This document shows, one piece after another, positions 31,053 through 44,935 of a DNA stretch of 64,000 nt. The position numbers and the translations under genes are program-made. Under the pieces are notes generated by a model. The model ran no database searches. It was given only the letters and a program-made list of their open reading frames with translations, and was not told where the DNA came from. Positions within the stretch are counted from its first letter, which is position 1, and every line of letters begins with the position of its first letter. Source of the stretch: Legionellales bacterium (lineage in GTDB: Bacteria > Pseudomonadota > Gammaproteobacteria > JAHCLG01); assembly GCA_026125385.1 (NCBI GenBank), contig JAHCLG010000013.1, forward strand, positions 3,866 to 67,865, in the 5' to 3' direction.

Positions 31053-32339
31053 CTAACTTAAGGTATTTTTTTGCAGCATAATACTCACTTTTAACCCGCC
31101 TTCGGCTAGATTGATTAAAGAGATATCGCCACCCAACGCGTGAATAATATCTCTGGCCACGGCTAAACCTAAGCCAGTTCCGCCCGTTTGACGAGAGCGC
31201 GATCCTTCCACGCGATAAAAAGGTTCGAATACTTTTTCCATTTCTTTTTCGGGAATGCCAGGACCTTGGTCGCTGATTTCAACAATAATATGATCATTTT
31301 TTTCTAATAATTTTACTACCGCGAGATTACCGTACTTCACCGCATTTTCAATTAAATTACTAAATACGCGTTTTAGCGAGTTAGGTTTACTGTAATAAAT
31401 TAAACGCTTTTCATAATTCTCATAATGAACATTCAATCCAGCATCCGCTAAATCTAAACACAGCGCTTCCATAAATGCATCAAAATCGAATTTTTCCATC
31501 ATTTCATCTTGATAATCATCACGTGCAAAATTCATGGTGGCTGAAATCATCGCCTCCATGTCTTCTAGATCGCGTAATATACGTTGATATTGTTCGTGAT
31601 CGTCAATTAATTCAGCGCGTAATTTAAGTCGGGTTATTGGTGTGCGTAAATCATGAGAAATTGCTGCTAACATTTGCGTACGATTGGTAATTAAGCGTTT
31701 AATGCGAGTTTGCATTTCGTTAAAAGCACGGGTGGCTTGTTTAATTTCTAGCGGTCCTTGTTCAGCTAATGGAGGTGCATTAACATCAATACTTAAGCGT
31801 TTTGCTGCACTGAAAAAATTGACTAGTGGCAATGCTAAACGACGCACTGCCCATGCGCATAATAAAAATGCTGCACCAGCCATGAGTAATAAGGTAATTA
31901 CCGTAAAAAAAACTAAGATATGGCTTGATTCAACAAATTGACCATTAATGTTTAACCAATTACCATCATCTAAATTAAGTGATAATTGAAATTTATTATC
32001 TTGAATATTATTAATATAATTACGAATGCGTAGTGGATTAGCATGATGAATAATGACAGATTTATCTTTGGGAGATTTATCTAGTGCAATAGTGAGATCG
32101 GAATTATTAACGGCACTAATAATATGTTCTAATTCATCGCGCGGTACCACTAAGGCAATACGGACGATTTGCGAAATGCGATTGGCTAATTCGTTACGAC
32201 CTGGATTATGCAGAACATAACTGTGATACAAATCGTAAATTAAAAAACTCGAAAATTGAATAATTAAAAAGCCAATAAATAATAATAAAAAAGTTTGGCG
32301 TCCCATACTGCCTGGAAATAAACGAAATGATTTTAACAT
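31053..32339 (-). CDS. envZ: EnvZ-like osmosensor histidine kinase
   Basis: Two TM segments and a HAMP domain. H-box AAISHDLRTPITRLKL is nearly identical to EnvZ; G-boxes GTGLGLA. Directly downstream of the ompR-like gene. Confidence 0.75.
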   Translation of the reverse strand: MLKSFRLFPGSMGRQTFLLLFIGFLIIQFSSFLIYDLYHSYVLHNPGRNELANRISQIVRIALVVPRDELEHIISAVNNSDLTIALDKSPKDKSVIIHHANPLRIRNYINNIQDNKFQLSLNLDDGNWLNINGQFVESSHILVFFTVITLLLMAGAAFLLCAWAVRRLALPLVNFFSAAKRLSIDVNAPPLAEQGPLEIKQATRAFNEMQTRIKRLITNRTQMLAAISHDLRTPITRLKLRAELIDDHEQYQRILRDLEDMEAMISATMNFARDDYQDEMMEKFDFDAFMEALCLDLADAGLNVHYENYEKRLIYYSKPNSLKRVFSNLIENAVKYGNLAVVKLLEKNDHIIVEISDQGPGIPEKEMEKVFEPFYRVEGSRSRQTGGTGLGLAVARDIIHALGGDISLINLAEGGLKVSIMLQKNTLS

Positions 32340-32351
32340 GAGTACCGCCTT

Positions 32352-33125
32352 TTAATCGCTAAGAATGTCGACATTCACACAAAATTGATAGCCACCACCG
32401 CGCACGGTTTTTATCATTTCTGGATTTTTAGGATCAGTCTCGATTTTACGCCGTAATCGGCCTACTTGCACGTCAATGGTGCGATCAAAGGGACCTGCTT
32501 CGCGTTCCCGAGTTAAATCTAATAATTGATCACGAGTTAAAACTCGATGGGGGTTATTTACAAAGGCGATTAATAAATCAAATTCTCCCGCGGAAAGTGG
32601 CACGACGACGCCATCGGCGGCTTGTAAACGACGTTTATTCTGATCCAAAATCCAATTACGAAATTGAATACGGGGTAAAGGGATGAGTTTTCCATCGCTG
32701 GGGTTATCACTTAAAATAGCGTTGCGGGCACGGCGCAAAACCGCTTTAATTCGTGCTAATAATTGACGTGGGCTAAATGGTTTGGCGACAAAATCATCTG
32801 CACCGGTTTCTAAACCGGCAACGACATCCGCTTCACTGTTCATGGCAGTAAGCATGATAATAGGTGTTGTGAGTTTTTCGCGAATTTTTCGGCATAAACT
32901 AAAACCATCATCCCCAGGAAGCATAATATCTAATAAAATTAAATCCAATTTATCTTTCCCCAAAACCGCCAACATATCTTCGCCATGATGACACACGGTT
33001 ACGCGATAACTATGTTTTTCCAAAAATTCTCGTAAGAGTTGGCAAATTTCCAGATCATCATCAACGATGAGAATATGTAGGCGTTTATCCATGGTTTCAT
33101 CATAAGGTTTATTAACGGATGACAA
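32352..33125 (-). CDS. ompR: OmpR-family response regulator, close to OmpR itself
   Basis: Long stretches such as IIMLTAMNSEADVVAGLETGADDF..PF.PR.LLARIKAVLRR and LSAGEFDLL...RTIDVQVGRLRRKIE align almost residue-by-residue with E. coli OmpR from memory. Confidence 0.8.
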   Translation of the reverse strand: MSSVNKPYDETMDKRLHILIVDDDLEICQLLREFLEKHSYRVTVCHHGEDMLAVLGKDKLDLILLDIMLPGDDGFSLCRKIREKLTTPIIMLTAMNSEADVVAGLETGADDFVAKPFSPRQLLARIKAVLRRARNAILSDNPSDGKLIPLPRIQFRNWILDQNKRRLQAADGVVVPLSAGEFDLLIAFVNNPHRVLTRDQLLDLTREREAGPFDRTIDVQVGRLRRKIETDPKNPEMIKTVRGGGYQFCVNVDILSD

Positions 33126-33242: not shown

Positions 33243-34946
33243 TTGCCCCCTCACGCCCTCCCTTTAATTACTACGCTCGCGGCTGCATTTGGGTTAGCAT
33301 TGCTCTTTGGATTTATAGCGGCACGCTTAAAAATTCCCACTTTAGTCGGATATTTATTAGCAGGTATCGTGCTAGGACCATTCACGCCAGGATTTGTGGC
33401 TAACACCTCCATTGCACACGAATTATCTGAAATTGGTGTCATGTTATTAATGTTTGGTGTGGGACTGCATTTTTCTCTTAGCGATTTACTGACAGTGCGT
33501 AAAATCGCTGTGCCTGGTGCATTAATTCAAATTATTGTGGCCACGCTATTAGGGGTTGCTGTTGCTTTGCCTTGGGGATTTGGTTTGGGTGGTGCTTTAA
33601 TTTTTGGTTTAGCACTGTCGGTTGCCAGTACAGTGGTTTTATTGAGAGCGCTCGAAAGCCAAGGATTACTGGAATCCATTAACGGTAGAATTGCCGTGGG
33701 TTGGTTGGTCATTGAAGATCTTGTTATGGTCTTAGTATTGGTTCTATTACCACCGTTGGCAAAATTATTGGGTGGTGCTTCTCCCCATTTTCAAAGCAGC
33801 GATTCTCTCTGGTTGATTCTGGGGGTAACTCTGCTGAAAATTGCGCTCTTTATTACTTTAATGCTAGTGTTGGGACGGCGATTTTTCCCAAAATTATTGT
33901 GGTGGGTGGCAAGTAGTGGTTCACGCGAATTATTTACACTTAGTGTGATAGCGGCCGCGATTAGTATAGCTTACTTAGCTTCCATTTTATTTGGTGTTTC
34001 TTTTGCATTAGGGGCTTTTTTTGCAGGAATGATGATGCGCGGTTCCGATCTCAGTCATCGAGCTGCAGAAGAATCATTACCCTTTCGCGATGCATTTGCT
34101 GTATTATTTTTTGTTGCCGTTGGCATGCTATTTGATCCTAAAATATTAATTTTAGAACCATTCCACGTATTGGCAGTCGTGGGAATTATTATCATTGGTA
34201 AATCGCTTGCAGCTGCTATGCTCGTACTCTTTTTTCGCTATCCACTCAACACGGCTTTAACGGTTTCCGTAAGTCTCGCCCAAATAGGTGAATTTTCTTT
34301 TATTCTGGCAGGCCTTGGTGTTGCCCTCGGTTTATTACCCGTCAATGGACAAAATTTAATTTTAGCCGGCGCATTAATTTCAATCGCAGTTAATCCTTTT
34401 ATTTTTGCCGCAGTGAATCCATTTTTAAATTGGCTACGCAAGCACTCGGCATTAGCGCGAAAATTTGAACGCGCAGCAGATCCTTTAACCGAATTACCCA
34501 TGACTACAGCGCCAAAATTTTTATCAGAACAAATTGTATTAGTGGGTTATGGTGATCGTGTGGGAAGCCGGATTGCACAAGCTTTTATTCAAGAGGATAT
34601 TCCTTATGTCGTAGTTGATCAAAATCGTGAATTAGTTGAAGAATTAAGAAATCAAGATATTGCGGTGGTATCAGGCGACGCAGCAGAACCGAGTGTGTTA
34701 ATTCAAGCTCATATTGCACGCGCAAAGTTAATGGTAATCGCATTACCTAATACCTTGCATGTGCAAAGAATGATTGAAATAGCGCGTATGCTGAATCCTA
34801 AAATTGAAATTGTCGTGCGCACGCATTTTGAGGAAGAAGCTGAACGTTTAGAAAAACAAGCGCGTGTAAAAGCATTTTTAGGAGAAAAAGAACTCGCACA
34901 TAGCATGAGTCACTATGCTTTAACCTACTGGAAAACTGAACATTAA
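33243..34946 (+). CDS. KefB/KefC-family monovalent cation:proton antiporter (CPA2) with C-terminal TrkA-N domain
   Basis: Na+/H+-exchanger membrane domain (LGYLLAGIVLGP) plus a Rossmann KTN domain (VLVGYGDRVG). Exact start uncertain. Confidence 0.75.
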   Translation: MPPHALPLITTLAAAFGLALLFGFIAARLKIPTLVGYLLAGIVLGPFTPGFVANTSIAHELSEIGVMLLMFGVGLHFSLSDLLTVRKIAVPGALIQIIVATLLGVAVALPWGFGLGGALIFGLALSVASTVVLLRALESQGLLESINGRIAVGWLVIEDLVMVLVLVLLPPLAKLLGGASPHFQSSDSLWLILGVTLLKIALFITLMLVLGRRFFPKLLWWVASSGSRELFTLSVIAAAISIAYLASILFGVSFALGAFFAGMMMRGSDLSHRAAEESLPFRDAFAVLFFVAVGMLFDPKILILEPFHVLAVVGIIIIGKSLAAAMLVLFFRYPLNTALTVSVSLAQIGEFSFILAGLGVALGLLPVNGQNLILAGALISIAVNPFIFAAVNPFLNWLRKHSALARKFERAADPLTELPMTTAPKFLSEQIVLVGYGDRVGSRIAQAFIQEDIPYVVVDQNRELVEELRNQDIAVVSGDAAEPSVLIQAHIARAKLMVIALPNTLHVQRMIEIARMLNPKIEIVVRTHFEEEAERLEKQARVKAFLGEKELAHSMSHYALTYWKTEH

Positions 34947-35159: not shown

Positions 35160-35414
35160 CTATTCCTTTAAAATGCCTTCTTGATCAGCTTCAAAATTTA
35201 ATTCTCGAATATAATCTTGAATTAATTTTGCCGAAATAGCTAATTTTTGCGAGGCTTGCGAACACTCGGAAAAATATTGTTTTGATGCCTTGTCGTTAAA
35301 ATTAGCTTGCGGTTCAATGGCTGCTAATAATTGAGAAATAATAGCACTTAATTCTGAAATCACTTCTGCCAGTGGCAACAGATCATGTGCGACTTTTTTA
35401 ATGGTACGGGTCAT
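35160..35414 (-). CDS. hypothetical small protein (84 aa)
   Basis: ORF directly downstream of the XRE/S24 repressor on the same strand. No motif recognised. Confidence 0.4.
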   Translation of the reverse strand: MTRTIKKVAHDLLPLAEVISELSAIISQLLAAIEPQANFNDKASKQYFSECSQASQKLAISAKLIQDYIRELNFEADQEGILKE

Positions 35415-35440
35415 GTGGTTTCCTTTTACAAAATATCATA

Positions 35441-36085
35441 TTATCCATTCCTCGAACGTTTCCAACATTCTCGATAGACGCCAATAATCATCACTTCATC
35501 GTGTAATTTTAATTTGTTAGGGTGATTTAACGGTGAACTTAAAATAAGATGATCATTCATCTTGTGTGCAAAGCGAATTAATATCTCATTAGCTGGGCGC
35601 GTATATGCCAAGATAATTTCGCCATCGTTAAAATGAAGCAGTTGTTCGAATATAATCATATCGCCTACTTCAAATTTTGGCGCCCATTCATGGCTAGTCA
35701 CATAAATGCTTATGGAATTATTTTCATACACTTGGGAGGTGATGATAAAGTTATTCGTGGTTAGTGATTTTTTTTCGTTACTTTGATAATACATGCGCAG
35801 TTGATCGGGGTAATATAAGGGTACGCGGTAGGTTTTGATTGACGTATTTTCTTGATGAATTTCACCTTGTCCAGTGGCTAGCCAAGTTTCATTCACATTC
35901 AAATATTCTGCAATTTTTTTCGCATTTTTAGAAAATTTAACATCATTATTGAGAATATAGTGCAATCCAGAAGGTGACAACCCCAGTTTTTCCGCCATAT
36001 GCGATTGTTTAACCCCCATGGTATCAACGAGATACTTGAGGCGTTTCGATACACTGTCTAGATTGTCGAGCTTTTCGGAGGTCAT
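35441..36085 (-). CDS. XRE-HTH / S24 (LexA/CI-like) two-domain repressor
   Basis: N-terminal HTH (QSHMAEKLGLSPSGLHYILN). C-terminal S24-like beta domain. GDM appears in place of the canonical GDSM, so autocleavage is uncertain. Confidence 0.6.
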   Translation of the reverse strand: MTSEKLDNLDSVSKRLKYLVDTMGVKQSHMAEKLGLSPSGLHYILNNDVKFSKNAKKIAEYLNVNETWLATGQGEIHQENTSIKTYRVPLYYPDQLRMYYQSNEKKSLTTNNFIITSQVYENNSISIYVTSHEWAPKFEVGDMIIFEQLLHFNDGEIILAYTRPANEILIRFAHKMNDHLILSSPLNHPNKLKLHDEVMIIGVYRECWKRSRNG

Positions 36086-36130
36086 TAGTGTTTAGCTCTC
36101 TCACCGGAAAAGCGGTAGCATAACAGTAAC

Positions 36131-36144
36131 TGAATAATTATTCA
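36131..36144. promoter_or_regulatory. perfect 14-bp palindrome TGAATAATTATTCA (operator candidate)
   Basis: Lies in the divergent intergenic region between the repressor and the 90-aa ORF. A related site GAATAAATATTC is at 36245-36257, and there are several TTCGAA cores. Confidence 0.4.
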
Positions 36145-36306
36145 AATTATATTAAAATTTTGGTGTTGAAATTTCGAAACCGTTCTATATTCGAATAAAA
36201 TTGCTATTTGTCGCGTTATAACTTGAAAATTACGCTTGACTTCGAATAAATATTCAGTATTATGTCACTGTCTTTTCGAATTTTTAGTTAGAGATAGGGG
36301 TAGTCA

Positions 36307-36579
36307 ATGCAATCTGTCGATGAACAACCAGTCAATCACCAAGCCATTCCGTTAGCGCGTTTTAAAATTGTGAAGCATTATTATGATCAATCCATTGCTC
36401 GCGTAATGTTGTACGATCATGAAAATGCGCAAACTCATTTGTTGACATTGCCAGAACTCGTGCAGCACGATGATTTTCTCACTAGTCTCAACGCAACGGA
36501 TTTACGCATCGTGATGTCGATGTGGGTCGATTATGAAATATTACAGGAACGTCAAGCCATTCGCGATCTTATTCATTAA
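36307..36579 (+). CDS. hypothetical protein (90 aa), divergent from the repressor
   Basis: ORF with a plausible start. Followed by a 12-bp inverted repeat (GAGCAATTACCA/TGGTAATTGCTC at 36633-36684) and then a T7 run. Confidence 0.45.
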   Translation: MQSVDEQPVNHQAIPLARFKIVKHYYDQSIARVMLYDHENAQTHLLTLPELVQHDDFLTSLNATDLRIVMSMWVDYEILQERQAIRDLIH

Positions 36580-36833
36580 CGTAAATATTTTTCAGACGAG
36601 CAGAAAATTCCTGGCTTGCTATTTTCTGATAAGAGCAATTACCACGTTTATTAATACGTTCTCTGTGTGTTATGGTAATTGCTCGTTTTTTTGATAGTTT
36701 CAAAAGTGCAAACTGCAGTTATTCAAAAGGATTAAAAGTAATGGAGAATCATTATTCTAGTAAATTATTGTAATATTTTCACCATATTTGGTTTTTTTTC
36801 TCTCTCTGATTTAATATATTAGATTTTTGTATG

Positions 36834-37934
36834 CTATATATTCCCGCATATTTTACATGACGACATTTTTTCCCAGGTTTCCTTTACAAGTAATTTATTA
36901 GATTGAAAATCATAAACAATCAGATTACCTAAGGCGTTCGGAGCAAGAATATCAGTAGTGATTTTTATAAACTCAGATAACATCAATCCTGTTAGAATAG
37001 ATACTAAAGGTGCAATTGTTATATTCGGAATTCTGGAGCTCACAAAATTATCATTTTCTATGAAATCTAAGAATAATGTTCCTGACTCTCTGGCAGAATT
37101 CTTCCAGCATTCAATACACCCGCTTTTCCCTGGTATGACTGAATAAAAGAAGCAATATTTCCAATCTAAAGCACCACAAATAAAAGGGACTTTTTCATTG
37201 ATGCAGGCCTGGTTTACCCAGTTTAGGATTTGGTTTCTGGGTTGATCAATAACACTAATAACAAACTCTTGGCCAGATATAATATTGGAAACGTCATCAT
37301 TCGATGATATTTTAATATTAATAAAATTTAGTTTTGCATTAGGCAAAAATGCTTTTATTTTTCTTTTTGCAATATCAACTTTGCGTAGACCCACATCAGA
37401 TTCATCGTATATTATTTGTCTATTGAGATTTGATAACTCGATTTTATCAAAATCTACGGCTTGTATTTGATGTATACCTAATGCTGCAAGTTCATAAAGT
37501 ATATGGGAACCAGCTCCACCGAGCCCTAATAGTGTAACTTTAGTATTTTGTAGTTTTTTTTGATAATTAAATTTATTATGACTAGAAGATGTGTAGGCGC
37601 CAAAAAATTCAATATTTCGTTCCCAGCGTTCAATCTCATAGGGTGAAAATTCTTTACTATTTAGAATGACATTGTCTTCTAGTAAATAAGCTTTATCAAG
37701 TGATGTCAGCAGGTCATTTAAATATGATACTTCTTTTGGATGAGTGTGATTAAGGATTTCTTCTATTTCTTTGACAGTTTTTTTGCCATCCAGTAGCTGG
37801 CATACCGTTTTGATAAAACCTTTACTATCACCCAGCTCTATGGCTGTTCCCGGACTTTTAAAAAAATATATTTTATCTTCAGATGTGTAATATTCAACCA
37901 TAGCCTTTAGTATTGGCCGACTAGTGTTTTTCAT
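36834..37934 (-). CDS. ThiF/MoeB/MccB-like E1 adenylyltransferase with N-terminal RRE (RiPP recognition element)-like domain
   Basis: The N-terminal roughly 120 aa show a PqqD/RRE-like pattern (LLDGKKTVKEIEEIL...DLLTSLDKAYLL). This is followed by the E1 P-loop LLGLGGAGS and DFDKIELSNLNRQ. The C-terminus has CxxC pairs (CIECW, CKICG), a Zn tetrathiolate arrangement as in MoeB/MccB. Confidence 0.7.
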   Translation of the reverse strand: MKNTSRPILKAMVEYYTSEDKIYFFKSPGTAIELGDSKGFIKTVCQLLDGKKTVKEIEEILNHTHPKEVSYLNDLLTSLDKAYLLEDNVILNSKEFSPYEIERWERNIEFFGAYTSSSHNKFNYQKKLQNTKVTLLGLGGAGSHILYELAALGIHQIQAVDFDKIELSNLNRQIIYDESDVGLRKVDIAKRKIKAFLPNAKLNFINIKISSNDDVSNIISGQEFVISVIDQPRNQILNWVNQACINEKVPFICGALDWKYCFFYSVIPGKSGCIECWKNSARESGTLFLDFIENDNFVSSRIPNITIAPLVSILTGLMLSEFIKITTDILAPNALGNLIVYDFQSNKLLVKETWEKMSSCKICGNI

Positions 37935-37958
37935 AATTTTTCACTTAGAGCAAATTGA

Positions 37959-38018
37959 TTACGCTACTTGAGCTGTACCCGCTATACTTATATCAATTTC
38001 TTTTATTTCGAAACTCAT
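37959..38018 (-). CDS. 19-codon ORF MSFEIKEIDISIAGTAQVA, candidate precursor/substrate peptide
   Basis: GAGGTG Shine-Dalgarno exactly 6 nt upstream of the ATG. Stops 24 nt before the E1-like gene on the same strand. Confidence 0.4.
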   Translation of the reverse strand: MSFEIKEIDISIAGTAQVA

Positions 38019-38233
38019 TTCTCACACCTCTTCATTTATTCAATAGATGACATATTAGCATAAGACTTGCAACTGAACAATTGATGTATATTGAATGGCT
38101 CTCTGGCGTTTCCCTAACAAATAAAAGCTTTTATGATTGGTTAAAGTATGGTAATTTACTGCATAGTATGTTTTTTACTATAAAAAACAATTCGTGAATT
38201 TCCTTCGCAATTATAAATGGTAGATACCACTCG

Positions 38234-39676
38234 ATGCTTAAGTGTTTTAAATTTATTTTATGTGTTTTGGCAACCCTAAGTTATTTATGTGGTAGCGCCG
38301 CTGGGTTAACCATCCCTCTTGGAAATAATAAAGTTTCACTTGATCCATCCTATGCTTTGGATGTATTGAGTTTATTTGTTGCGAGACAAATTAATTGTCA
38401 ACTGATACGCAACCAGAATGGTAATTACAAATTAGAAGCGGCAGAGTCTCTTAAATTTATATCTCCTACAGAATTACAAATAGTATTAAATAAAAATGCA
38501 AAATTTACTGATGGTTCTCCCGTAACAACATATGACGTCTTAGCAAGTTTTAATTATATAAAAAAATATCGAGCATTTTATCGAAATTTTTTTTCATGGA
38601 TTAATGATATTAAAATCATAGATCAAACAAAGTTATTAATCCGTTTGAAAAAACCTGCCCCGCAACTTTTAAATATGCTTGCATCACCAATTTATTCAAT
38701 ATATAAAAAATCTTTTTTAGCCAGAGCAGAAAAAAATAAATCTCTTTGGCATAACCCAATTGGTTGTGGTGGGTATAAAATACTGAAGTTTACAAAAAAG
38801 GAAATCCAGCTTGAACCAATACATAAGGGATTGCCAATTAAGTTTGTTTTTAATAATGAAAATCAAATATCGTCTGCTGATATTGATAAATATGATTTAA
38901 TCACATTGAAAGTTAGCCAAAACTTAAAGAAGTTGTCTAATTTCCAGGATATAAAAATATTTGATCCGTCACAGCTTTATGTCGGGTTAAATGTTTCTAA
39001 ACCTATTTGGAGTAACAAAAGCACACGATGCTCTTTTCTTTCAAAAATTGATGATAATGATTTAAAAAAATTATATGGTGACTCTGGAATTATAGCTAAT
39101 GATTTCCTACCTCAAGGTACTCTGGGGTATAATAAGAACTTCAATTTTGCAGCAATAATTCATGCTAACACTGAAGATTATTCGTCCTTAAAAATCACAA
39201 AGGATATATGCGTCGCATATATAGGGATTAGTATACCTAAAGATCTTATAAAAGGTTATCTAGATACTATAGAAAAAATTTCACCTCGCATTAAGCTTTT
39301 ATCAATTTCAAATCCTAGTAAATTTGCTCCAATTTTCTTAAAGAAAAAATGCGATATAATTATTTTTAGCTTAAAATCTAGTTATTATGATGGTTATGAA
39401 TATTTAGATGTATTCGCAGATAAAGATGAAAATTTCACTGGAATTCATGACGAAGATCTTATTTCTAAAATAAAAAAGAGCCAATACGTTACCGATTTAA
39501 ATAAGCGCGCAATGCAATATCAAAAAATTATTAATAATATTGCAAATAAATGCTATATAAGACCATTGATCACGGTCCCAATGAGAGATATTTATGTGAA
39601 AAATATATTTAATGCTCCTGGTATTTCTATAGGTCCATATGCCGAGTATTACCTTGGAAATATTGCTTTAAAATAG
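38234..39676 (+). CDS. family-5 (peptide/nickel type) periplasmic solute-binding protein, orphan
   Basis: Signal peptide plus an SBP_bac_5-like N-terminus (KFTDGSPVTTYDVLASFNYIKK). No adjacent ABC permease or ATPase. Confidence 0.6.
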   Translation: MLKCFKFILCVLATLSYLCGSAAGLTIPLGNNKVSLDPSYALDVLSLFVARQINCQLIRNQNGNYKLEAAESLKFISPTELQIVLNKNAKFTDGSPVTTYDVLASFNYIKKYRAFYRNFFSWINDIKIIDQTKLLIRLKKPAPQLLNMLASPIYSIYKKSFLARAEKNKSLWHNPIGCGGYKILKFTKKEIQLEPIHKGLPIKFVFNNENQISSADIDKYDLITLKVSQNLKKLSNFQDIKIFDPSQLYVGLNVSKPIWSNKSTRCSFLSKIDDNDLKKLYGDSGIIANDFLPQGTLGYNKNFNFAAIIHANTEDYSSLKITKDICVAYIGISIPKDLIKGYLDTIEKISPRIKLLSISNPSKFAPIFLKKKCDIIIFSLKSSYYDGYEYLDVFADKDENFTGIHDEDLISKIKKSQYVTDLNKRAMQYQKIINNIANKCYIRPLITVPMRDIYVKNIFNAPGISIGPYAEYYLGNIALK

Positions 39677-39683
39677 TTATTAA

Positions 39684-39945
39684 TACCCATATTGAGCTAC
39701 CCTCTGATTAAAAAATCGAATTTATTCTGAACAAATTAGTAAAATTTTGCTTACATTAATGTTGTTTAAACCCTTTCTCACTGGATCCATTAACTTTCAC
39801 TCTACTAACTGCTTCTATGAGTGATCAATTTGCACGATCTTCATTTCTACGAGCAATATAACTTTCTTAGAAAGACTCTAAGTTAATGTTTTTTTTATAT
39901 TTAATAAAATCAATTTTTTATGAAGTGGGGTAGCTCAATGTGGGT
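39684..39945. repeat. MITE-like segment bounded by 19-bp imperfect inverted repeats (TACCCATATTGAGCTACCC ... GGGTAGCTCAATGTGGGTT)
   Basis: Inverted repeats at 39684-39702 and 39927-39945 match 17 of 19. They flank about 225 bp in the convergent gap between the SBP and MATE genes. Confidence 0.35.
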
Positions 39946-40027
39946 TAATATATGATACGCGTAAATTTTGTTTTTAATGGCTTTTCATGTATGCTTAAAT
40001 CGGGAAATTTTAATCTCGGTTCAATAT

Positions 40028-41380
40028 TCAAACTAAGGATTTCCCATATCGTTTTTCAAGTTTCAAAATATCCTTGTAACACAAAATAGCAAATACTGTT
40101 GAGAATAAGGTCATTATTAATCCAAATGTTTTAGGCGTTGCATGAATAAATAAGATAAACACTTCTGTGATACCAATTAAAATTAATATTTCAGTTAGAA
40201 AATAATTTTTTGTAACCATATGGCTATTTTTTGTGGCACGTAAAGGCACAGTGAATCCGTTGCCTATTTGTGCAATAAACGAACTTCCCAAAAAAATAAT
40301 TACATATTGCATTTGATCAGGATTGGGGATATAACCATACACTAATTTAAATAAAGGTGACACGTAGAGTAAAGAGATCGTTAAGAACAACGAAGTTGGA
40401 ATGATGCCTGTATAAAAATATATTGGCCACCATGTGACATTTTCGTTACATTCTTGAGAAAAAGTTTGTGACGCTTCTCTAATTGCTATTTGCATTGCTG
40501 CAACAAATGGCATGCAAATAATAAATGCTAATTGTAATGTTAGTTGATAGGTAACTAAAAAATTTGAAGAACTTATAAAATAGACAAATTGCAAAGCAAG
40601 AATAAAAGGTGTAATCCCTCTTATTAAATAAACACCTAGTTCGCCCCACCATACTTTCATAATCATAGGCAAAGGATATTTATCCCAGCCCATTCTATTT
40701 TTTGATAGAAAATAAAGTCCAGAAGAAATAGCTAGGATATATAATATAGTAGTAGAGGATATTAATATTATCATTGGATAATAAATAGAATTTACTGTGG
40801 TACTTCCGTGAAAATAGTAACTAACAATCTGACTATCTATAATAATATTTAAAATAACTAGAACAAAAGCTATTTTCATACTAAAATTTTGTTTTTTAGA
40901 AGCAACTAATATACCATCGACGGTGCAATAAAGTGTTTGAAGAATCATATTTATGAGGCCAATTCGTAGATATGCTATTGCTAAGGGAATATAAGATGTT
41001 TGAACTTTACAAAACGTTACAAATTGATATGAAAATACCCCTGCGGTAATGGCTATGCATAGCGCAATTGTTCCTGATAAAAGTAAATGATTAATGAGTA
41101 CTGAGCCTTCCTTACCTTTACATTCTTCACGGTTAAAGAATACTAGACAACTTATATAAGTTGCTAATCCAATGAATTGTCCAAAAGTAATAAATACATA
41201 CTGTAAATTATGTATATATAGTGCTGATTGACCTAAAACGGCAATATATCGATTATCAATTATAGGGAAAAATCTCTGAAATATTTGTGAAAAAACGATG
41301 GGTAATAGAAGAATAAAATGATGTTGCAAATTCTCTGGTTTTTGAAAGCATTTTTTTATAATAGCTGTAAATAATTCCAT
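40028..41380 (-). CDS. MATE/MOP-family efflux transporter
   Basis: 450 aa, about 12 TM segments. MATE-like N-terminal pattern PIVFSQIFQRFFPIIDNRYIAVLGQSALY. Confidence 0.6.
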   Translation of the reverse strand: MELFTAIIKKCFQKPENLQHHFILLLPIVFSQIFQRFFPIIDNRYIAVLGQSALYIHNLQYVFITFGQFIGLATYISCLVFFNREECKGKEGSVLINHLLLSGTIALCIAITAGVFSYQFVTFCKVQTSYIPLAIAYLRIGLINMILQTLYCTVDGILVASKKQNFSMKIAFVLVILNIIIDSQIVSYYFHGSTTVNSIYYPMIILISSTTILYILAISSGLYFLSKNRMGWDKYPLPMIMKVWWGELGVYLIRGITPFILALQFVYFISSSNFLVTYQLTLQLAFIICMPFVAAMQIAIREASQTFSQECNENVTWWPIYFYTGIIPTSLFLTISLLYVSPLFKLVYGYIPNPDQMQYVIIFLGSSFIAQIGNGFTVPLRATKNSHMVTKNYFLTEILILIGITEVFILFIHATPKTFGLIMTLFSTVFAILCYKDILKLEKRYGKSLV

Positions 41381-41407
41381 AGATTAAACCTTCTTTCCAT
41401 TAATATC

Positions 41408-41466
41408 TACTTCTTCGTGTCTTTAACTCTGCGCCTCGCCTAGAATCCAATTGCTTTGAGTAAATA
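41408..41466. repeat. copy of a dispersed 60-70 bp repeat (other copies at 8641-8709 and 48380-48449)
   Basis: The sequence CTTCGTGTCTTTAACTCTGCGCCTCGCCTAGAATCCAATTGCTTTGAGTA aligns at about 85% with the other copies. Confidence 0.5.
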
Positions 41467-41686
41467 CACGACCTTAATTAAATTTGACACTTATTCATAA
41501 CGTTTATATTTTAAGTTGTGTAGCGAATTAAGCCTACATAAAGGCTATAACTGATACATTAGCTTGTAAATTTAACTCATCAAAATGGTTGAAATATTAA
41601 ACATATATTTGGAGCACATAATAACATAAAATAACGCTAAATAATACTATTTAATGTACTCCTGCATGCTTCTCTTGAAAAGATTG

Positions 41687-42594
41687 TTAGTTTAATTTTT
41701 TTCTACATTCAAACAAAATCATCGGTATGAATAGCTCTGGTGTTTCACTATCCTTACTGATAATAATTTTATTGACACTAAGATTAGTCTTATTAAGTAA
41801 ACTCAACCATTCTTCTTTAGAACGACTTAAGCTATTCCAGTTAACCATCAAATTTAAATCATTTAATACGGCTCTTAAATACCCTAGATGTGACTTTTGC
41901 GGCAACATAAAATCGACAATGAGCAATTTAGCTTCATTAGACAAACTTTTTGCGCATTCATTCAGAATTTTAATGGCCATGTCATCATTCCAATTCAATA
42001 ATGTGCGGCATAAGACATACAGATCACCACTTTGGGGAATACCTTGAAAAAAATCACCACCGATTATGGTTACGCGCGTCAGACAATTATAGGCATTTAG
42101 AACTTTTTCAGCGTTTTGTACCACGGTTGGTAAGTCGAATAAGATACCAGTTTGATGAGGATTGTTTTTCAATACATTGCCCAAAAAATGCCCTTGAGCA
42201 CCAGCAACATCTACAATTCGATGGTAACTATCAAAATTATTTTGCCAAATTTTTTGTTCCAGGCAGGTTCATGAGTTTTAAGGGTGAATTCAAATTCTTC
42301 AAATGCTTCATAAGCTCTGATTAAATGAGGTGACCTCGCACGAGCTAATTGTGGGGTTAACTCTGTGCAATAAACCCTATCCTGAGAGATAAGTACGATT
42401 TCATGTGCTTCTAACACTCTTAAAAAACGTTTAAGGGCGTCGTGATTAAATTGTAATGTTGTCGCTAGTTCTAGTGTGCTAATACCGGTACTAGGAATCA
42501 ACTTATCTAGCTTGTACTCACCAGCTAGTAAAATTACTTTAGCGGTCACATAGCTAAGCGCCAAGGTATAAATTTTATGAGGATTCTTTTGCAT
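41687..42594 (-). pseudogene. class-I SAM-dependent O-methyltransferase (COMT-like family 2) split by a frameshift in a T6/A6 homopolymer
   Basis: The N-terminal dimerisation fragment (42211-42594) and the C-terminal catalytic fragment (41687-42184) are in different frames. Reading the second frame upstream restores YHRIVDVAGAQGHFLGNVLKN, the SAM-binding motif. The shift maps to the homopolymer run at 42250-42255. Confidence 0.7.
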
Positions 42595-42840
42595 TGGAGT
42601 CTCAAGTCGGTTTACTATGGGAGATAAGTTTAACTGTTTACACGATTAACCACAATTTAAACATGGCGCATATTTATTCTAATAAGTTTACATTGAAAAC
42701 TTCAATAAGAAATATCTTTCTAGGTACTTTTTTAGTTATTTTTATTTCAGCGTTTTTTTTTATCGCTGTATTTTAGTAATCAAGAAGCTGCCACGCAAAT
42801 TCGGCAGAACACGTTAGCTTCACATAAAATTTTAGTTTCA

Positions 42841-44862
42841 TTGATTGAACCGAGTTTGGTTATTTCCAATACCTTAGAAATTCGAAGGCTATTGGCATTA
42901 GTTAGTAGTGATGAGCACACTTTTTCAGTAATTGATGATAATAATATTGTGTATTTGCCCGATTATAAATTTCAAGATTTAGTCGATGAAATTATAAAAT
43001 CGGATAAAATAAAACATGGCTGTGAAATCAATGATTTTTTCACAATAGCATTTCATGGTCGAACATATCAAGTATTATGCTCAATAATTAGCAAGCCTGG
43101 AATCATATCCTTTAAAGGAAGCCCATATTTAATCAGCTTTAATTTGGAAAATCCTTTAAAAATTTCAATTAATACACTTCTCTATTTTTTAATATCTACG
43201 ATATTGATATTTTTAATTACCTATTTTTGGTTTGGGATTAATTTAAAGAGAAAGTTATTAAATTATCTGTATTCACTTGAGGTTCAAATCAAAAATAAAA
43301 ATTTCAACTTCATAGAGAATGTTTCTGCGGTTAAAGATGATAAAATACCTCTTGAAATCGAGAATATTCGCGCGGCTTTTCAACAGCTATTAAGCGATCT
43401 GGGTAATGAAACGAATAAACGAATTGCCAGTGAAAAAAAAGCCGCCATTAGCACACTAGCAGCTCAGGTTGCTCACGATATTCGTTCACCTGTCGCTGCA
43501 ATTCAAATGCTAAGCAAAGAAAACTGCTTATTGCCAGAAAATACTCGTAAATCGTTAAAAGATGCGGCAGCTCGAATACAGGATATTGCCAATAATTTAT
43601 TGTCTCAATATAAAACTGGTGCTAAAGATACGGCAGAGCAGAATAGTTTATTTTTAATTTCAGATGCAATTAGTGCTGTTGTTTCTGAAAAAAAATTACA
43701 ATATTCAGAACGCAAACTAAACTTGCATATTCAAGCACAAGGTGATGCCAATCTCGCTTTTATATATTCAGACCCCATTAACTTTAAACGAATGCTTTCC
43801 AATTTACTCAATAATTCGATTGAGGCCATAGGTGAAGAGGGTTCTATTTCCATTGTGCTTCACTCATCACAAGATTATGTTGATGTGCGGATCACGGATG
43901 ATGGTTGTGGTATGTCTTCCGTAAAAATAGCTAATATTCTTAATGGCAATATTACTTCAACTAAAAATCAAGGTTCCGGTTTAGGCTTGCAACATGCGCG
44001 AGACTTTATGAAAAACGCCGCGGCAAAATTTGATATTCAATCAACAGAACGTATCGGTACCACTATTCACTTACAATTTAAACGAAGTGCTTCTCCTCCA
44101 TGGTTAGCTGATAAAATTTCTATTAAAAAGCAGAGTACTATTATCATTCTTGATGACGATGTTTCCATTCATGGCGCATGGGATCGATATTTTGCCGATC
44201 GAATTAATGTTGAGTATGGCATTAATATTCTGCATTTTCACCAAGCAGCGGAGTGTATTCTTACAATAAAAAATAATTTCAACACGCTGAAGGATGTAAT
44301 TATATTAACGGATTTTGAATTACTTAACCAAAATATGAATGGTTTAGATGTAGTTGAACATAGCGGTGTAAATAATACAATATTAGTCACCAGTTATTAT
44401 GATGACCGAAAAATATTAGCAAGGGCAGTATCACTGAATGCTAAAGTATTACCTAAAATGTTAGCCAGTGAGATTGAAATTGAAATTAATGAACAGCCTC
44501 AAAATTTTAAAATTCCTGAGGCTCCAAAAAATGAAGCTATCGATATAGTTTTGCTGGAAGATAATCAAGAGTTATCTGATATTTTCGCATTTATATGTGA
44601 ACGCAATGGAAAGCAGGTAAAAATCTATCATAACCCTTACTCATTATTTACGGATTTAAATACTTTCGACCCTCTTGCTACCAAAATTTGTCTTGATCTT
44701 AATCTCGGCTTCGATCCTGTCAATGGAATTGATATTGCCATTCTTCTGCATAATAAGGGATTTAAGCAAATTTATCTTGCTAGTGGCAGCCAGATCGATC
44801 CAAATTCTGTTCCCGAATATTTAATGGTATTAAAAAATAAAATCGATCTGACGCGTCTTTAG
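42841..44862 (+). CDS. hybrid sensor histidine kinase with two C-terminal receiver-like domains
   Basis: One clear TM segment, a HisKA H-box (VAHDIRSPVAAI), HATPase G-boxes (DDGCGM, GSGLGL), then two CheY-like modules with divergent acidic pockets. Confidence 0.7.
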   Translation: MIEPSLVISNTLEIRRLLALVSSDEHTFSVIDDNNIVYLPDYKFQDLVDEIIKSDKIKHGCEINDFFTIAFHGRTYQVLCSIISKPGIISFKGSPYLISFNLENPLKISINTLLYFLISTILIFLITYFWFGINLKRKLLNYLYSLEVQIKNKNFNFIENVSAVKDDKIPLEIENIRAAFQQLLSDLGNETNKRIASEKKAAISTLAAQVAHDIRSPVAAIQMLSKENCLLPENTRKSLKDAAARIQDIANNLLSQYKTGAKDTAEQNSLFLISDAISAVVSEKKLQYSERKLNLHIQAQGDANLAFIYSDPINFKRMLSNLLNNSIEAIGEEGSISIVLHSSQDYVDVRITDDGCGMSSVKIANILNGNITSTKNQGSGLGLQHARDFMKNAAAKFDIQSTERIGTTIHLQFKRSASPPWLADKISIKKQSTIIILDDDVSIHGAWDRYFADRINVEYGINILHFHQAAECILTIKNNFNTLKDVIILTDFELLNQNMNGLDVVEHSGVNNTILVTSYYDDRKILARAVSLNAKVLPKMLASEIEIEINEQPQNFKIPEAPKNEAIDIVLLEDNQELSDIFAFICERNGKQVKIYHNPYSLFTDLNTFDPLATKICLDLNLGFDPVNGIDIAILLHNKGFKQIYLASGSQIDPNSVPEYLMVLKNKIDLTRL

Positions 44863-44935
44863 AAAAATTATTTCTTAAAAATCTCTTATTGATCGCCGTT
44901 ATGATTTGATTCTTGCATATAATCTTTCACTCTTA

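What the first reader, a model, noticed from the sequence alone, without database searches (positions are those of the whole stretch)
36834..37934. E1-like enzyme fused to an RRE-like N-terminal domain and retaining catalytic motifs
Residues of about 20-90 read IYFFKSPGTAIELGDSKGFIKTVCQLLDGKKTVKEIEEIL...DLLTSLDKAYLL. This matches the PqqD/RRE winged-helix pattern (ligand-binding beta-strand followed by the L.DG..T..EI helix). The downstream domain has the GLGGAGS P-loop, the DFD...SNLNRQ motif, and C-terminal CxxC pairs (CIECW and CKICG). Unlike the inactive E1-like C-proteins of TOMM clusters, this one should be catalytically competent. That places it nearest MccB/PaaA-type peptide-adenylating enzymes.
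Basis: partly seen in the sequence, partly recalled or inferred. Interest (0 to 1): 0.65.

Follow-up and report, generated by a model that had tools for sequence, protein, structure and literature searches.

The report
Peptide-modifying E1-like enzyme with its substrate
This gene encodes a peptide-modifying enzyme of the microcin C / pantocin A type, and next to it lies a previously unnoticed 19-residue substrate peptide from a conserved family whose chemistry is unknown, plus an exporter and a possible peptide sensor.

Summary
ORF 36834-37934 (-) encodes a 366-aa protein. It has an N-terminal RiPP-recognition-element (RRE) fold and an intact ThiF/E1 adenylation domain. Its closest solved relatives, by sequence and by fold, are MccB and PaaA, not MoeB/ThiF.

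New here: a 19-codon gene (37959-38018, -; MSFEIKEIDISIAGTAQVA) sits 24 nt upstream. Homologous 15-23-aa peptides precede the enzyme gene in all 22 loci examined. Ser at -9 and Ala at -7 from the C-terminus are invariant, and the spacing is always the same. The C-terminal residue varies (G, Y, N, W, S, L, A), so this is not microcin C chemistry. None of the five characterised RRE-ThiF reactions fits.

Best reading: ATP-dependent activation of the peptide's C-terminal carboxylate, followed by intramolecular capture. The most likely nucleophile is the invariant Ser, which would give a 9-residue lariat lactone; this step is inferred, not shown.

The MATE exporter, orphan SBP_bac_5 binding protein and histidine kinase beside the window gene recur with this enzyme in two other loci. 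That hints at a secreted, sensed peptide. The kinase and a methyltransferase are frameshifted in the window.

Verdict: a new variant of a known kind.

The parts
36834..37934 (-). RRE-ThiF (E1-like) peptide-adenylating enzyme, 366 aa
   Evidence: ORF. Pfam ThiF E 5.7e-44. Best PDB relatives are MccB and PaaA. All 29 family-invariant residues are present.
37650..37934 (-). N-terminal RRE (winged-helix, beta3-alpha3) domain, residues about 1-95
   Evidence: Model secondary structure: strands E14-18, E21-27, E30-35, then helices H40-47, H54-64, H69-81. Foldseek top hits are RRE domains. Homologous to the PaaA N-terminal domain.
36891..37565 (-). ThiF/E1 adenylation domain, residues 124-348, followed by the second CxxC pair (C360, C363) at the C-terminus
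   Evidence: Pfam PF00899. Invariant GxGGxG, D163, NRQ 171-173, K185, D230, C273/C276/C360/C363.
37959..38018 (-). Precursor peptide gene, 19 codons: MSFEIKEIDISIAGTAQVA. GAGGTG Shine-Dalgarno 7-8 nt upstream; stop codon 24 nt before the enzyme's ATG
   Evidence: Read from the sequence. Homologous peptides lie upstream of the enzyme gene in 22 of 22 loci, with invariant Ser -9 and Ala -7. It is the only such ORF in the window.
38234..39676 (+). Orphan periplasmic solute-binding protein (SBP_bac_5, peptide/nickel type) with a signal peptide; no ABC permease gene is adjacent
   Evidence: Pfam SBP_bac_5 E 1.2e-21. 47.6% and 45.6% identical to the SBP genes in the ThiF clusters of L090 and L094. 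Small family of 39 proteins at E<1e-30.
40028..41380 (-). MATE-family efflux protein, the likely exporter of the product
   Evidence: Pfam MatE E 2e-8. 43.5% identical (E 1e-121) to the 451-aa MatE-like gene inside the L094 ThiF operon.
41687..42594 (-). O-methyltransferase (dimerisation domain plus Methyltransf_2), split by one frameshift. No counterpart in related clusters, so membership is uncertain
   Evidence: Pfam hits on the two halves. The SAM motif VDVAGAQG lies in the other reading frame, upstream of the second ORF.
42594..44862 (+). Sensor histidine kinase with a C-terminal receiver-like extension. As assembled it is frameshifted in a run of nine T (42753-42761). The shift separates the first transmembrane helix (ORF 42594-42776) from the rest (ORF 42841-44862)
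   Evidence: Pfam HATPase_c and HisKA. About 30% identical over about 570 aa to the kinases that directly follow the SBP gene in L090 and L094. Frameshift shown by three-frame comparison with the L090 and L094 N-termini.
35441..36085 (-). HTH plus peptidase-S24 (LexA/CI-like) regulator, a recurrent neighbour of this enzyme family
   Evidence: Pfam HTH_19, HTH_3 and Peptidase_S24. It clusters with HTH-S24 genes beside the enzyme in L001, L002, L003, L005, L006 and L015. One is also present in L094. Direct similarity to the window protein is weak.

Best explanation
The gene encodes an RRE-fused ThiF-like adenylyltransferase. It is the maturase of a small ribosomal peptide natural product (RiPP).

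Proposed mechanism: the N-terminal RRE binds the leader part of the 19-aa peptide encoded just upstream (MSFEIKEIDISIAGTAQVA). This places the peptide's C-terminus in the E1-type active site. There ATP/Mg is used to adenylate the C-terminal alpha-carboxylate.

The acyl-adenylate is then captured within the peptide. My preferred nucleophile is the hydroxyl of the invariant Ser, nine residues from the C-terminus. That would give a 9-residue lariat macrolactone (ring S-I-A-G-T-A-Q-V-A) with a 10-residue tail.

The product is exported by the neighbouring MATE pump. It may be recognised in the periplasm by the orphan SBP_bac_5 protein, which would signal through the adjacent histidine kinase.

Shown: domain folds, conserved catalytic residues, the conserved precursor family with fixed spacing, and recurrent neighbours.

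Inferred: that the peptide is the substrate (probability about 0.8), that the C-terminal carboxylate is the group activated (about 0.7), that Ser -9 is the nucleophile (about 0.35), and that the SBP and kinase sense the product (about 0.25).
For: Enzyme:
- RRE fold.
- MccB/PaaA-like overall fold and sequence.
- Invariant ATP-site and Zn-site residues.

Substrate:
- A short ORF with a Shine-Dalgarno site lies 11-167 nt upstream on the same strand in 22 of 22 loci, from Legionellales-like MAGs to Burkholderia, Vibrio, Histophilus, Fluviispira and Streptomyces.
- All carry Ser at -9 and Ala at -7. The background rate of this pair in ORFs of the same loci is 1.1%.
- Ser is encoded by 5 different codons and Ala by 4, so selection acts on the amino acids.
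- Gly is at -6 in 17 of 22, Ala or Ser at -4 in 20 of 22, and Pro at -2 in 10 of 22. This is a pattern of small and turn-forming residues inside the putative ring.

Carboxylate:
- The L001, L002 and L005 peptides contain no Asp or Glu. Their C-terminus is the only carboxylate available.
- All characterised ThiF-like enzymes act by nucleotidylating a carboxylate that a nucleophile then attacks (PMC12596934, PMC12150305).
- IndF and EnfB cyclise onto the C-terminal carboxylate.

Export and sensing:
- An MFS exporter gene directly follows the enzyme gene in L086-L089 and L091-L093.
- In L094, MatE, SBP_bac_5 and a kinase lie in one tight operon with the enzyme. L090 has the SBP and kinase, and the kinase gene starts 4-6 nt after the SBP stop codon.
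- The window's MATE, SBP and kinase are homologues of these at 43.5%, 46-48% and 30% identity.
Against: - No biochemistry exists for any member of this clade, and no enzyme-peptide complex could be modelled here.
- Ser -9 and Ala -7 could be recognition or spacer residues rather than the nucleophile. The fixed spacing would then reflect only the distance from the RRE to the active site, as with the fixed 7-residue length of MccA.
- The window cluster lacks the MlrC or M19 peptidase, the Vut_1 transporter and the Hexapep acyltransferase found in its nearest relatives.
- The kinase and the O-methyltransferase are frameshifted as assembled. The system may be decaying, or the MAG may carry homopolymer errors.
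- The SBP/kinase link is not universal. Only 3 of about 16 long contigs carrying this SBP family also carry a close ThiF homologue. Most enzyme loci have no SBP or kinase within 6 kb.
Confidence: 0.7

Rival explanations
1. Same enzyme and substrate, but the C-terminal acyl-adenylate has a different fate. Options: a C-terminal oxazolone or epimerisation, a backbone imide as proposed for EnfB, head-to-tail cyclisation, or transfer to an external nucleophile (amine, thiol or persulfide) giving an amide, thioester or thioacid. In this reading Ser -9 and Ala -7 serve only as recognition or spacer residues.
For: The C-terminal residue is highly variable, which suits side-chain-independent chemistry. 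ThiF-like OxzB makes oxazolones and EnfB is proposed to make an imide (PMC12596934). MccB can be diverted to make C-terminal thioesters on substrates other than its own (PMC13255007, PMC11118369; abstracts seen). The fixed spacing could be a simple molecular ruler.
Against: Pro at -2 in 10 of 22 peptides rules out attack by the residue -2 backbone nitrogen in those members. Peptide length and N-terminal extensions vary from 15 to 23 aa, and the N-terminal part is the likely RRE ligand, which argues against head-to-tail closure. No conserved partner enzyme that could supply an external nucleophile is found across the 22 loci. An invariant hydroxyl residue at a fixed distance from the electrophile would be left unexplained.
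Confidence: 0.3
2. A microcin C-type Trojan-horse system. The enzyme converts the C-terminal residue into a peptidyl-nucleotide with an N-P bond, which poisons an aminoacyl-tRNA synthetase after uptake and processing.
For: MccB is the closest solved relative. Four related peptides end in Asn: L001, L002, L005 and L012. Peptidase genes (MlrC, M19, M3, S9) and MFS pumps accompany many homologues, as immunity and export genes do in mcc clusters (PMC4010828).
Against: MccB chemistry needs a C-terminal Asn carboxamide (PMC4010828, PMC12596934). The window peptide ends in Ala, and 18 of 22 family peptides do not end in Asn. No mccD, mccE or mccF-like genes were found in the window's neighbourhood.
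Confidence: 0.05
3. A remnant. The window's copy is a decaying cluster whose enzyme and peptide are no longer used.
For: The kinase and O-methyltransferase are frameshifted. The peptidase, Vut_1 and Hexapep genes of the nearest relatives are absent from the whole window. The gene order is rearranged relative to L094.
Against: The enzyme ORF is full length with all 29 family-invariant residues. The precursor keeps Ser -9, Ala -7, Gly -6 and its Shine-Dalgarno site. The SBP and MATE ORFs are intact. The kinase frameshift lies in a T9 homopolymer, a common MAG assembly error.
Confidence: 0.1
4. Not a peptide maturase at all. It could be a housekeeping MoeB/ThiF sulfur-carrier activator, an inactive TOMM-type docking protein, or an E1 of a CBASS/Cap2-like defence system.
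For: It shares the ThiF domain with all of these. NCBIfam and PADLOC give domain-level hits.
Against: NCBIfam MoeB/ThiF scores are far below their cut-offs: 105 against 275, and 102 against 266. No MoaD or ThiS gene, no YcaO, and no E2, JAB or CD-NTase gene was identified among the ORFs of 30-45 kb that were scanned. PADLOC E1-E2 models match only the E1 core at 54 bits or less. The catalytic residues that degenerate in TOMM docking proteins are invariant here. An RRE and a conserved upstream peptide are present.
Confidence: 0.03

Closest known systems
MccB (E. coli microcin C7 synthetase; PDB 3h5n, 6om4)
   Same: Same two-domain architecture: an N-terminal peptide clamp (RRE) plus a ThiF/E1 adenylation domain with a Zn tetracysteine site. 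It is the best fold match (TMq 0.80 over 364 columns) and the best sequence match (E 8e-32). Its short precursor gene also lies directly upstream, and it acts on the peptide's C-terminal carboxylate.
   Different: Only 24-26% identical. MccA is 7 aa and must end in Asn; the peptide here is 19 aa, ends in Ala, and carries a Ser -9 / Ala -7 motif. No mccC, D, E or F homologues are present, so an N-P nucleotide conjugate is not expected.
PaaA (pantocin A maturase; PDB 5ff5)
   Same: The only solved protein whose N-terminal domain is detectably homologous by sequence (E 2e-5 for the single sequence, 3.8e-8 for the profile). Pfam PaaA-like_N matches 6 of 24 family members. Same RRE-ThiF architecture.
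   Different: PaaA activates an internal Glu side chain within a Glu-Glu-Asn motif of a 30-aa precursor. The peptides here have no conserved acidic residue, and some have none at all.
IndF, EnfB and GrcB (ThiF-like macrocyclases of Gram-positive RiPPs)
   Same: RRE-ThiF enzymes that lose one water by adenylating a carboxylate, which a nucleophile within the peptide then attacks. IndF and EnfB use the C-terminal carboxylate, and their clusters are minimal: precursor, enzyme, transporter (PMC12150305, PMC12596934). This is the mechanism I think the window enzyme works like.
   Different: Their nucleophiles and motifs are absent from the window peptide: a Trp indole three residues from the C-terminus, the WWIII motif, and a Glu plus C-terminal Cys pair. 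They come from streptococci and enterococci, not Gammaproteobacteria. No Ser-to-C-terminus ester made by a ThiF-like enzyme is described in the reviews read.
MoeB / ThiF (molybdopterin and thiamin sulfur-carrier activators)
   Same: The adenylation domain is homologous (E about 1e-17 to 1e-13), with the same Gly-rich loop, Arg/Lys/Asp catalytic residues and Zn site.
   Different: They have no RRE domain, and they act on about 70-90-aa beta-grasp proteins ending in Gly-Gly. NCBIfam equivalog cut-offs are missed by a wide margin.
Ocin-ThiF-like / TOMM 'C' docking proteins (PbtF, McbB, the N-terminal parts of LynD and TruD)
   Same: Their RRE domains are the best structural matches to the isolated N-terminal domain.
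   Different: Those proteins work with a YcaO cyclodehydratase, and their E1-like part is not an adenylating enzyme (PMC12150305). No YcaO is present here, and the ATP-site residues are invariant.
Binding-protein-dependent sensor kinases such as LuxP-LuxQ or TorT-TorS (from general knowledge, not tested here)
   Same: A periplasmic solute-binding protein is encoded next to a membrane histidine kinase that has a short periplasmic domain, with no ABC permease genes.
   Different: There is no sequence relationship. The ligand here would be a modified ribosomal peptide, which is not known for such pairs in Gram-negative bacteria.

Membership tests
ThiF/E1-like adenylyltransferase superfamily (PF00899) | ThiF domain above Pfam's gathering score | tested here: met
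   150.5 bits against a cut-off of 28.1, residues 124-348.
ThiF/E1-like adenylyltransferase superfamily (PF00899) | Intact nucleotide-binding and catalytic residues (Gly-rich loop, Asp, Arg, Lys, Asp) and the Zn tetracysteine site | tested here: met
   G137, G139, G140, G142, D163, R172, K185, D230 and C273, C276, C360, C363 are invariant in 37 homologues, including the window protein. They align with the same motifs in MccB.
RRE-fused ThiF-like RiPP maturases (MccB/PaaA family) | N-terminal RiPP recognition element (winged helix, beta3-alpha3) | tested here: met
   However, no Pfam RRE model matches the window sequence itself at E<=1.
RRE-fused ThiF-like RiPP maturases (MccB/PaaA family) | Short precursor peptide gene next to the enzyme gene and conserved with it | tested here: met
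   37959-38018 (-). Homologues are present in 22 of 22 loci.
RRE-fused ThiF-like RiPP maturases (MccB/PaaA family) | Exporter and/or peptidase genes in the cluster | tested here: met
   The window's MATE is homologous to the MatE-like gene in the L094 operon. Relatives carry MFS, MlrC, M19 or M3 genes. No peptidase gene is present in the window.
RRE-fused ThiF-like RiPP maturases (MccB/PaaA family) | ATP-dependent modification of the peptide | not testable with these tools
   Needs an in vitro assay.
Microcin C-type systems | Precursor ends in Asn, which is required for the succinimide and the N-P bond | tested here: not met
   The window peptide ends in Ala. Only 4 of 22 family peptides end in Asn.
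Microcin C-type systems | Accessory mccC, mccD, mccE or mccF-type genes | tested here: not met
   Pfam and NCBIfam scans of the neighbours find SBP_bac_5, MatE, an O-methyltransferase and a histidine kinase instead.
Pantocin A-type systems | Internal Glu-Glu-Asn core in the precursor | tested here: not met
   No EEN in MSFEIKEIDISIAGTAQVA. Several family peptides have no acidic residue at all.
GrcB / IndF / EnfB product classes | Glu plus C-terminal Cys (GrcB); Trp three residues before the C-terminus (IndF); WWIII-type motif (EnfB) | tested here: not met
   The window peptide has no Cys and no Trp. Motifs are as described in PMC12596934 and PMC12150305.
MoeB / ThiF of primary metabolism | NCBIfam equivalog score, and a MoaD or ThiS partner ending in Gly-Gly | tested here: not met
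   TIGR02356 scores 105 against 275. NF004281 scores 102 against 266. TIGR02355 scores 93 against 377. No such partner was identified among the neighbouring ORFs.
TOMM / YcaO-associated E1-like docking proteins | Partner YcaO cyclodehydratase in the cluster | tested here: not met
   No YcaO among the neighbours at 35-45 kb, nor in the annotated related loci.
CBASS Cap2 / E1-E2 defence proteins | Fused or adjacent E2 (and JAB) with a CD-NTase | tested here: not met
   PADLOC E1-E2 models align only to the E1 core, residues about 124-287, at 54 bits or less. The neighbours have no defence hits.

The most novel reading that the evidence does not exclude
The cluster is a peptide-based autoinducer circuit in a Gram-negative (Legionellales) bacterium. 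A ThiF-like enzyme turns a 19-aa ribosomal peptide into a lariat depsipeptide; a Ser-to-C-terminus ester would be a reaction new to this enzyme family. A MATE pump exports the product. An orphan periplasmic SBP_bac_5 protein, paired with a hybrid histidine kinase, senses it. This would be functionally analogous to Gram-positive AIP/Agr signalling but built from unrelated parts.
Probability: 0.15. Interest if true: 0.85.

Novelty: new variant of a known kind. Interest (0 to 1): 0.58.

Why it matters
RRE-fused ThiF-like enzymes are a recognised but barely explored source of RiPP chemistry. Five reaction types are known, against about 27,400 candidate fusions in RefSeq (PMC12150305).

This locus defines a compact, testable clade: a two-gene core, a 15-23-aa substrate that is easy to synthesise, and a clear sequence signature (Ser -9, Ala -7, fixed spacing). 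None of the known reactions fits that signature, so a simple in vitro assay could reveal a sixth reaction.

The clade reaches cultured bacteria, including Burkholderia ubonensis, Vibrio mangrovi, Histophilus somni, Fluviispira vulneris and Streptomyces, so experiments need not rely on the MAG.

The repeated linkage to an orphan peptide-binding protein and a sensor kinase raises the possibility of modified-peptide signalling in Gram-negative bacteria. If confirmed, that would be of wide interest.

Tried and rejected
1. AIP-like 5-residue thiolactone or lactone from a Cys/Ser/Thr at -5. This was suggested by the first four peptides. It was rejected because position -5 is V, A, R, L, D, Q or M in 11 of 22 peptides.

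2. Microcin C chemistry. Rejected for the window and for the family as a whole, because a C-terminal Asn occurs in only 4 of 22 peptides.

3. Backbone imide at residue -2. Impossible where -2 is Pro, which is 10 of 22 peptides.

4. The promoter and terminator scan of 36000-38400 found no more sites than shuffled sequence, so it was uninformative.

5. I spent the single genome-contig scan on the lone protein rather than on an alignment. It returned only one locus. Isolate genomes had to be reached through the look-up of encoding contigs instead.

6. The first tblastn of the window's neighbours against the 85 loci then held found nothing. The SBP, MATE and kinase link appeared only after L090 and L094 were fetched.

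7. The kinase homologue search was dominated by kinases that share only the C-terminal 70%. It added just two further same-contig SBP-kinase pairs, inferred from equal contig lengths (5841 and 8286 bp).

8. tblastn of relatives' MlrC, M19, Vut_1, MFS and the conserved 170-190-aa unknown protein against the whole window found no homologues or remnants.

9. Literature searches found no paper on this clade or its precursor motif. The tiarin preprint's mention of Legionella concerns an unrelated cluster.

Full report
**1. Observation**

The ORF at 36834..37934 (-) is real and complete: 366 aa, ATG start.
- Pfam ThiF matches residues 124-348 (E 5.7e-44). Nothing in Pfam matches residues 1-120.
- An identical protein is recorded as a ThiF family adenylyltransferase from a Legionellales MAG. 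The closest other homologue is only 55% identical, and 296 homologues were found at E<=1e-3 in 5.8 billion proteins.
- In a 37-sequence alignment that includes the window protein (the others are 30-55% identical to it), several residue groups are invariant. These are the Gly-rich loop (G137, G139, G140, G142), D163, N171-R172-Q173, K185, D230 and the four Cys C273, C276, C360, C363.
- From my own knowledge of E. coli MoeB, R103, R172, K185 and D230 correspond to its R14, R73, K86 and D130. I did not test this with a tool.

**2. The enzyme**

By sequence, the best solved relatives are MccB (E 8e-32) and PaaA (E 6e-29). The PaaA match spans query residues 6-203, so it includes the N-terminal domain. 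MoeB and ThiF follow at 1e-17 to 1e-13.

The full-length AlphaFold model is confident (pLDDT 94.7).
- It superposes on MccB over its whole length (TMq 0.80, 364 columns) and on PaaA (TMq 0.71).
- MoeB and ThiF cover only the C-terminal domain.

The N-terminal domain was tested separately.
- Alone, it hits PaaA's N-terminal domain at E 2e-5.
- As a 24-sequence profile it hits PaaA at 3.8e-8. Sub-threshold hits to PqqD, PbtF and TbiB1 follow.
- Pfam PaaA-like_N matches 6 of the 24 family members and PqqD matches 5. Neither matches the window member itself.
- A separate model of residues 1-99 (pLDDT 84.7) has three strands followed by three helices.
- Its top 22 PDB matches are almost exclusively RRE domains: PbtF, ThcOx, TbiB1, TruD, LynD, TbtB, McbB, lasso B1, MadB, MibB and SuiB.

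This N-terminal domain family is rare. Only 40 cluster representatives reach E<=1e-3 among 1.84 billion proteins, and nearly all of them are about 360-390-aa proteins or fragments.

Other assignments were checked.
- NCBIfam MoeB/ThiF equivalogs are missed by a wide margin.
- PADLOC E1-E2 models match only the E1 core.

**3. The substrate gene**

A 19-codon ORF lies 24 nt upstream on the same strand at 37959-38018. It encodes MSFEIKEIDISIAGTAQVA and is preceded by GAGGTG.

I fetched related loci by exact-protein look-up and by collection scans. In all 22 loci of this family with upstream sequence, a homologous ORF of 15-23 codons ends 11-167 nt before the enzyme gene. Examples:

| Locus | Organism or source | Peptide |
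|---|---|---|
| Window | Legionellales MAG | MSFEIKEIDISIAGTAQVA |
| L001 | metagenome | MTFTIKQIKVSLAGCAIPN |
| L090 | metagenome | MKFKVTYVKVSLAGSASPY |
| L007 | metagenome | MDFEVKHVPVSLAGAATPW |
| L086 | Burkholderia ubonensis | MSFEKISVAGTSQTG |
| L087 | Vibrio mangrovi (two copies) | MAIKFTKASNATLSAVG |
| L088 | Histophilus somni | MKFKKYQASDAKLASVG |
| L089 | Streptomyces | MKTRKASAAGQAHEG |
| L091 | Fluviispira vulneris | MKFKVKKTPLSSAGMSNVG |

Conservation, counted from the C-terminus:

| Position | Residues | Count |
|---|---|---|
| -9 | Ser | 22 of 22 |
| -7 | Ala | 22 of 22 |
| -6 | Gly | 17 of 22 |
| -4 | Ala or Ser | 20 of 22 |
| -2 | Pro | 10 of 22 |
| -1 (C-terminus) | G 9, Y 5, N 4, W 1, S 1, L 1, A 1 | variable |

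- The Ser -9 / Ala -7 pair occurs in 1.1% of all ORFs in the same loci.
- Ser is written with five different codons and Ala with four. Selection therefore acts on the peptide, not on the DNA.
- The window holds only one such ORF.

**4. Mechanism**

All characterised ThiF-like enzymes nucleotidylate a carboxylate, which a nucleophile then attacks (PMC12596934; PMC12150305).

Several peptides of this family (L001, L002, L005) contain no Asp or Glu. Their C-terminal carboxylate is the only candidate, so C-terminal activation is the parsimonious reaction. None of the known outcomes fits:
- Microcin C chemistry needs a C-terminal Asn. That is absent from the window peptide and from 18 of 22 peptides.
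- PaaA needs a Glu-Glu-Asn motif.
- GrcB needs a Glu and a C-terminal Cys.
- IndF needs a Trp.
- EnfB needs its WW motif. An imide at residue -2 is also impossible where that residue is Pro.
- My first idea, a staphylococcal-AIP-like ring from a Cys/Ser/Thr at -5, failed. That position is not a nucleophile in half of the peptides.

The only invariant nucleophile is Ser -9, always at the same distance from the electrophile. Small or turn-forming residues (Ala -7, Gly -6, Ala/Ser -4, Pro -2) lie between them. I therefore favour a Ser-to-C-terminus ester giving a 9-residue lariat lactone (probability about 0.35).

The main alternative is that Ser and Ala are recognition or spacer residues and the activated C-terminus has another fate. 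This cannot be settled by computation.

**5. The cluster**

In cultured relatives the enzyme gene is directly followed by an MFS exporter. An M3 or S9 peptidase or a haem-oxygenase-like/cupin protein is often nearby.

In the Legionellales-like clade the recurrent neighbours are:
- an MlrC or an M19 peptidase;
- a Vut_1 transporter;
- a 170-190-aa protein with no Pfam match;
- an HTH-S24 regulator.

The window has the HTH-S24 gene but none of the others. Instead it carries SBP_bac_5, MatE, an O-methyltransferase and a histidine kinase. These are not random neighbours.
- L094 is a tight operon: precursor, ThiF, MlrC, MatE-like, Hexapep, SBP_bac_5 and kinase, with a convergent HTH-S24 gene.
- L090 has ThiF, MlrC, Hexapep, SBP_bac_5 and kinase.
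- The window proteins match these at 43.5% (MATE), 46-48% (SBP) and about 30% (kinase) identity.

The SBP family is small: 39 proteins at E<1e-30. It has no ABC permease partner in these loci. It shares a contig with a full-length kinase homologue in at least five cases.

This suggests a binding-protein-dependent sensor for the exported peptide. The link is facultative, however. Thirteen other long contigs with this SBP carry no close ThiF homologue.

In the window the kinase is frameshifted inside a T9 run, which cuts off its first transmembrane helix. The methyltransferase also has one frameshift. These may be assembly errors or signs of decay.

The whole block (about 35.4-44.9 kb) has lower G+C (0.29-0.34) than its surroundings (about 0.38-0.40). 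That is consistent with an acquired island.

**6. Comparison and novelty**

RRE-ThiF fusions are a known kind. The MccB/PaaA family was outlined in 2014, when it was noted that many members lack an identifiable Asn-ending precursor (PMC4010828). A 2025 survey counted about 27,400 candidates, with five chemistries characterised (PMC12150305, PMC12596934, PMC12250964).

No paper in the searchable library describes this clade, its precursor signature or its SBP/kinase link.

More distant RRE-ThiF loci in the metagenome set carry other short upstream peptides with 'IRKL'-type or 'KLxKP'-type leaders. Small C-terminally addressed peptides therefore seem to be a general theme in this enzyme family.

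I rate this a new variant of a known kind. The enzyme class is known, but the substrate family is undescribed, the reaction is probably new, and the sensing association is unusual.

**7. Verdict**
- Observation: confirmed.
- Enzyme as maturase of the upstream peptide: about 0.8.
- C-terminal activation: about 0.7.
- Ser lactone: about 0.35.
- Sensing role of the SBP and kinase: about 0.25.
- Interest: 0.58.

Noticed in passing
window 42594-42862 (T run at 42753-42761): The sensor kinase is split by a frameshift inside a run of nine T. The first transmembrane helix is in ORF 42594-42776 and the rest is in ORF 42841-44862. This could be a MAG homopolymer error, a pseudogene or a phase-variable tract.
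   Followed up: partly
window 41687-42594 (-): The O-methyltransferase is split into 127-aa and 165-aa ORFs by one frameshift. The SAM motif VDVAGAQG lies out of frame upstream of the second ORF. There is no counterpart in related ThiF clusters.
   Followed up: partly
window about 35400-44900: This block has lower G+C (0.29-0.34) than the flanks (about 0.38-0.40). It lies between a Kef-type K+/H+ antiporter-like gene (33243-34946; assignment from reading the sequence, not tested) and a large gene at 44936-47197 (not analysed). It looks like an acquired island.
   Followed up: no
window 29565-30960 (-): An AbiEii nucleotidyltransferase toxin (Pfam E 3.6e-19) overlaps an AbiEi-like antitoxin gene (weak hit, E 0.004). 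Together they form a type IV toxin-antitoxin pair.
   Followed up: partly
window 31053-33125 (-): A separate two-component pair (a 428-aa histidine kinase and a 257-aa OmpR-type response regulator, judged from the translations) lies a few kb from the cluster. I did not examine whether it relates to the orphan hybrid kinase.
   Followed up: no
window 36307-36579 (+) and 35160-35414 (-): Two small ORFs (90 and 84 aa) flank the HTH-S24 gene. Neither has a significant Pfam match, and neither has a homologue in the related loci.
   Followed up: partly
L087 6686-6739 and 6829-6882 (Vibrio mangrovi): The precursor gene is duplicated in tandem. Both copies encode the identical peptide MAIKFTKASNATLSAVG and have identical Shine-Dalgarno regions.
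   Followed up: no
L009, L010, L012-L014, L086-L089, L091-L093: intergenic region between the precursor and the enzyme gene: In the more distant clade, strong stem-loops (10-16 bp; -19 to -75 kcal/mol for the region) follow the precursor stop codon. They look like attenuating terminators that would set the peptide-to-enzyme ratio. The Legionellales-like clade, including the window, has only 11-24 nt and no hairpin.
   Followed up: partly
L001 9317-9895, L002 9289-9801, L003 5222-5782, L005, L006, L015: A 170-190-aa protein with no Pfam match recurs beside the enzyme in the Legionellales-like clade, together with a Vut_1 (YhhQ-type) transporter and either an MlrC or an M19 peptidase. These may be immunity or processing factors. 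All are absent from the window.
   Followed up: partly
L086 9421-10221, L091 9321-10463, L087 5353-6417: Haem-oxygenase-like (TENA/Haem_oxygenas_2) and/or cupin proteins recur next to the enzyme-MFS pair in Burkholderia, Fluviispira and Vibrio. They may be oxidative tailoring enzymes.
   Followed up: no
L017, L022, L024-L026, L029, L033, L044, L046, L048, L051, L052: More distant RRE-ThiF genes (25-30% identity) have their own short upstream peptides. Examples are MKLKKLPKPIAPAAAVGKAG, MKLEKLEKPVVPASSIQKAG, MKIRKLSKREVLVSATSTR and MTKQAKIKIRKLEKNETTAVLCSTSA. These suggest several further uncharacterised precursor families.
   Followed up: partly
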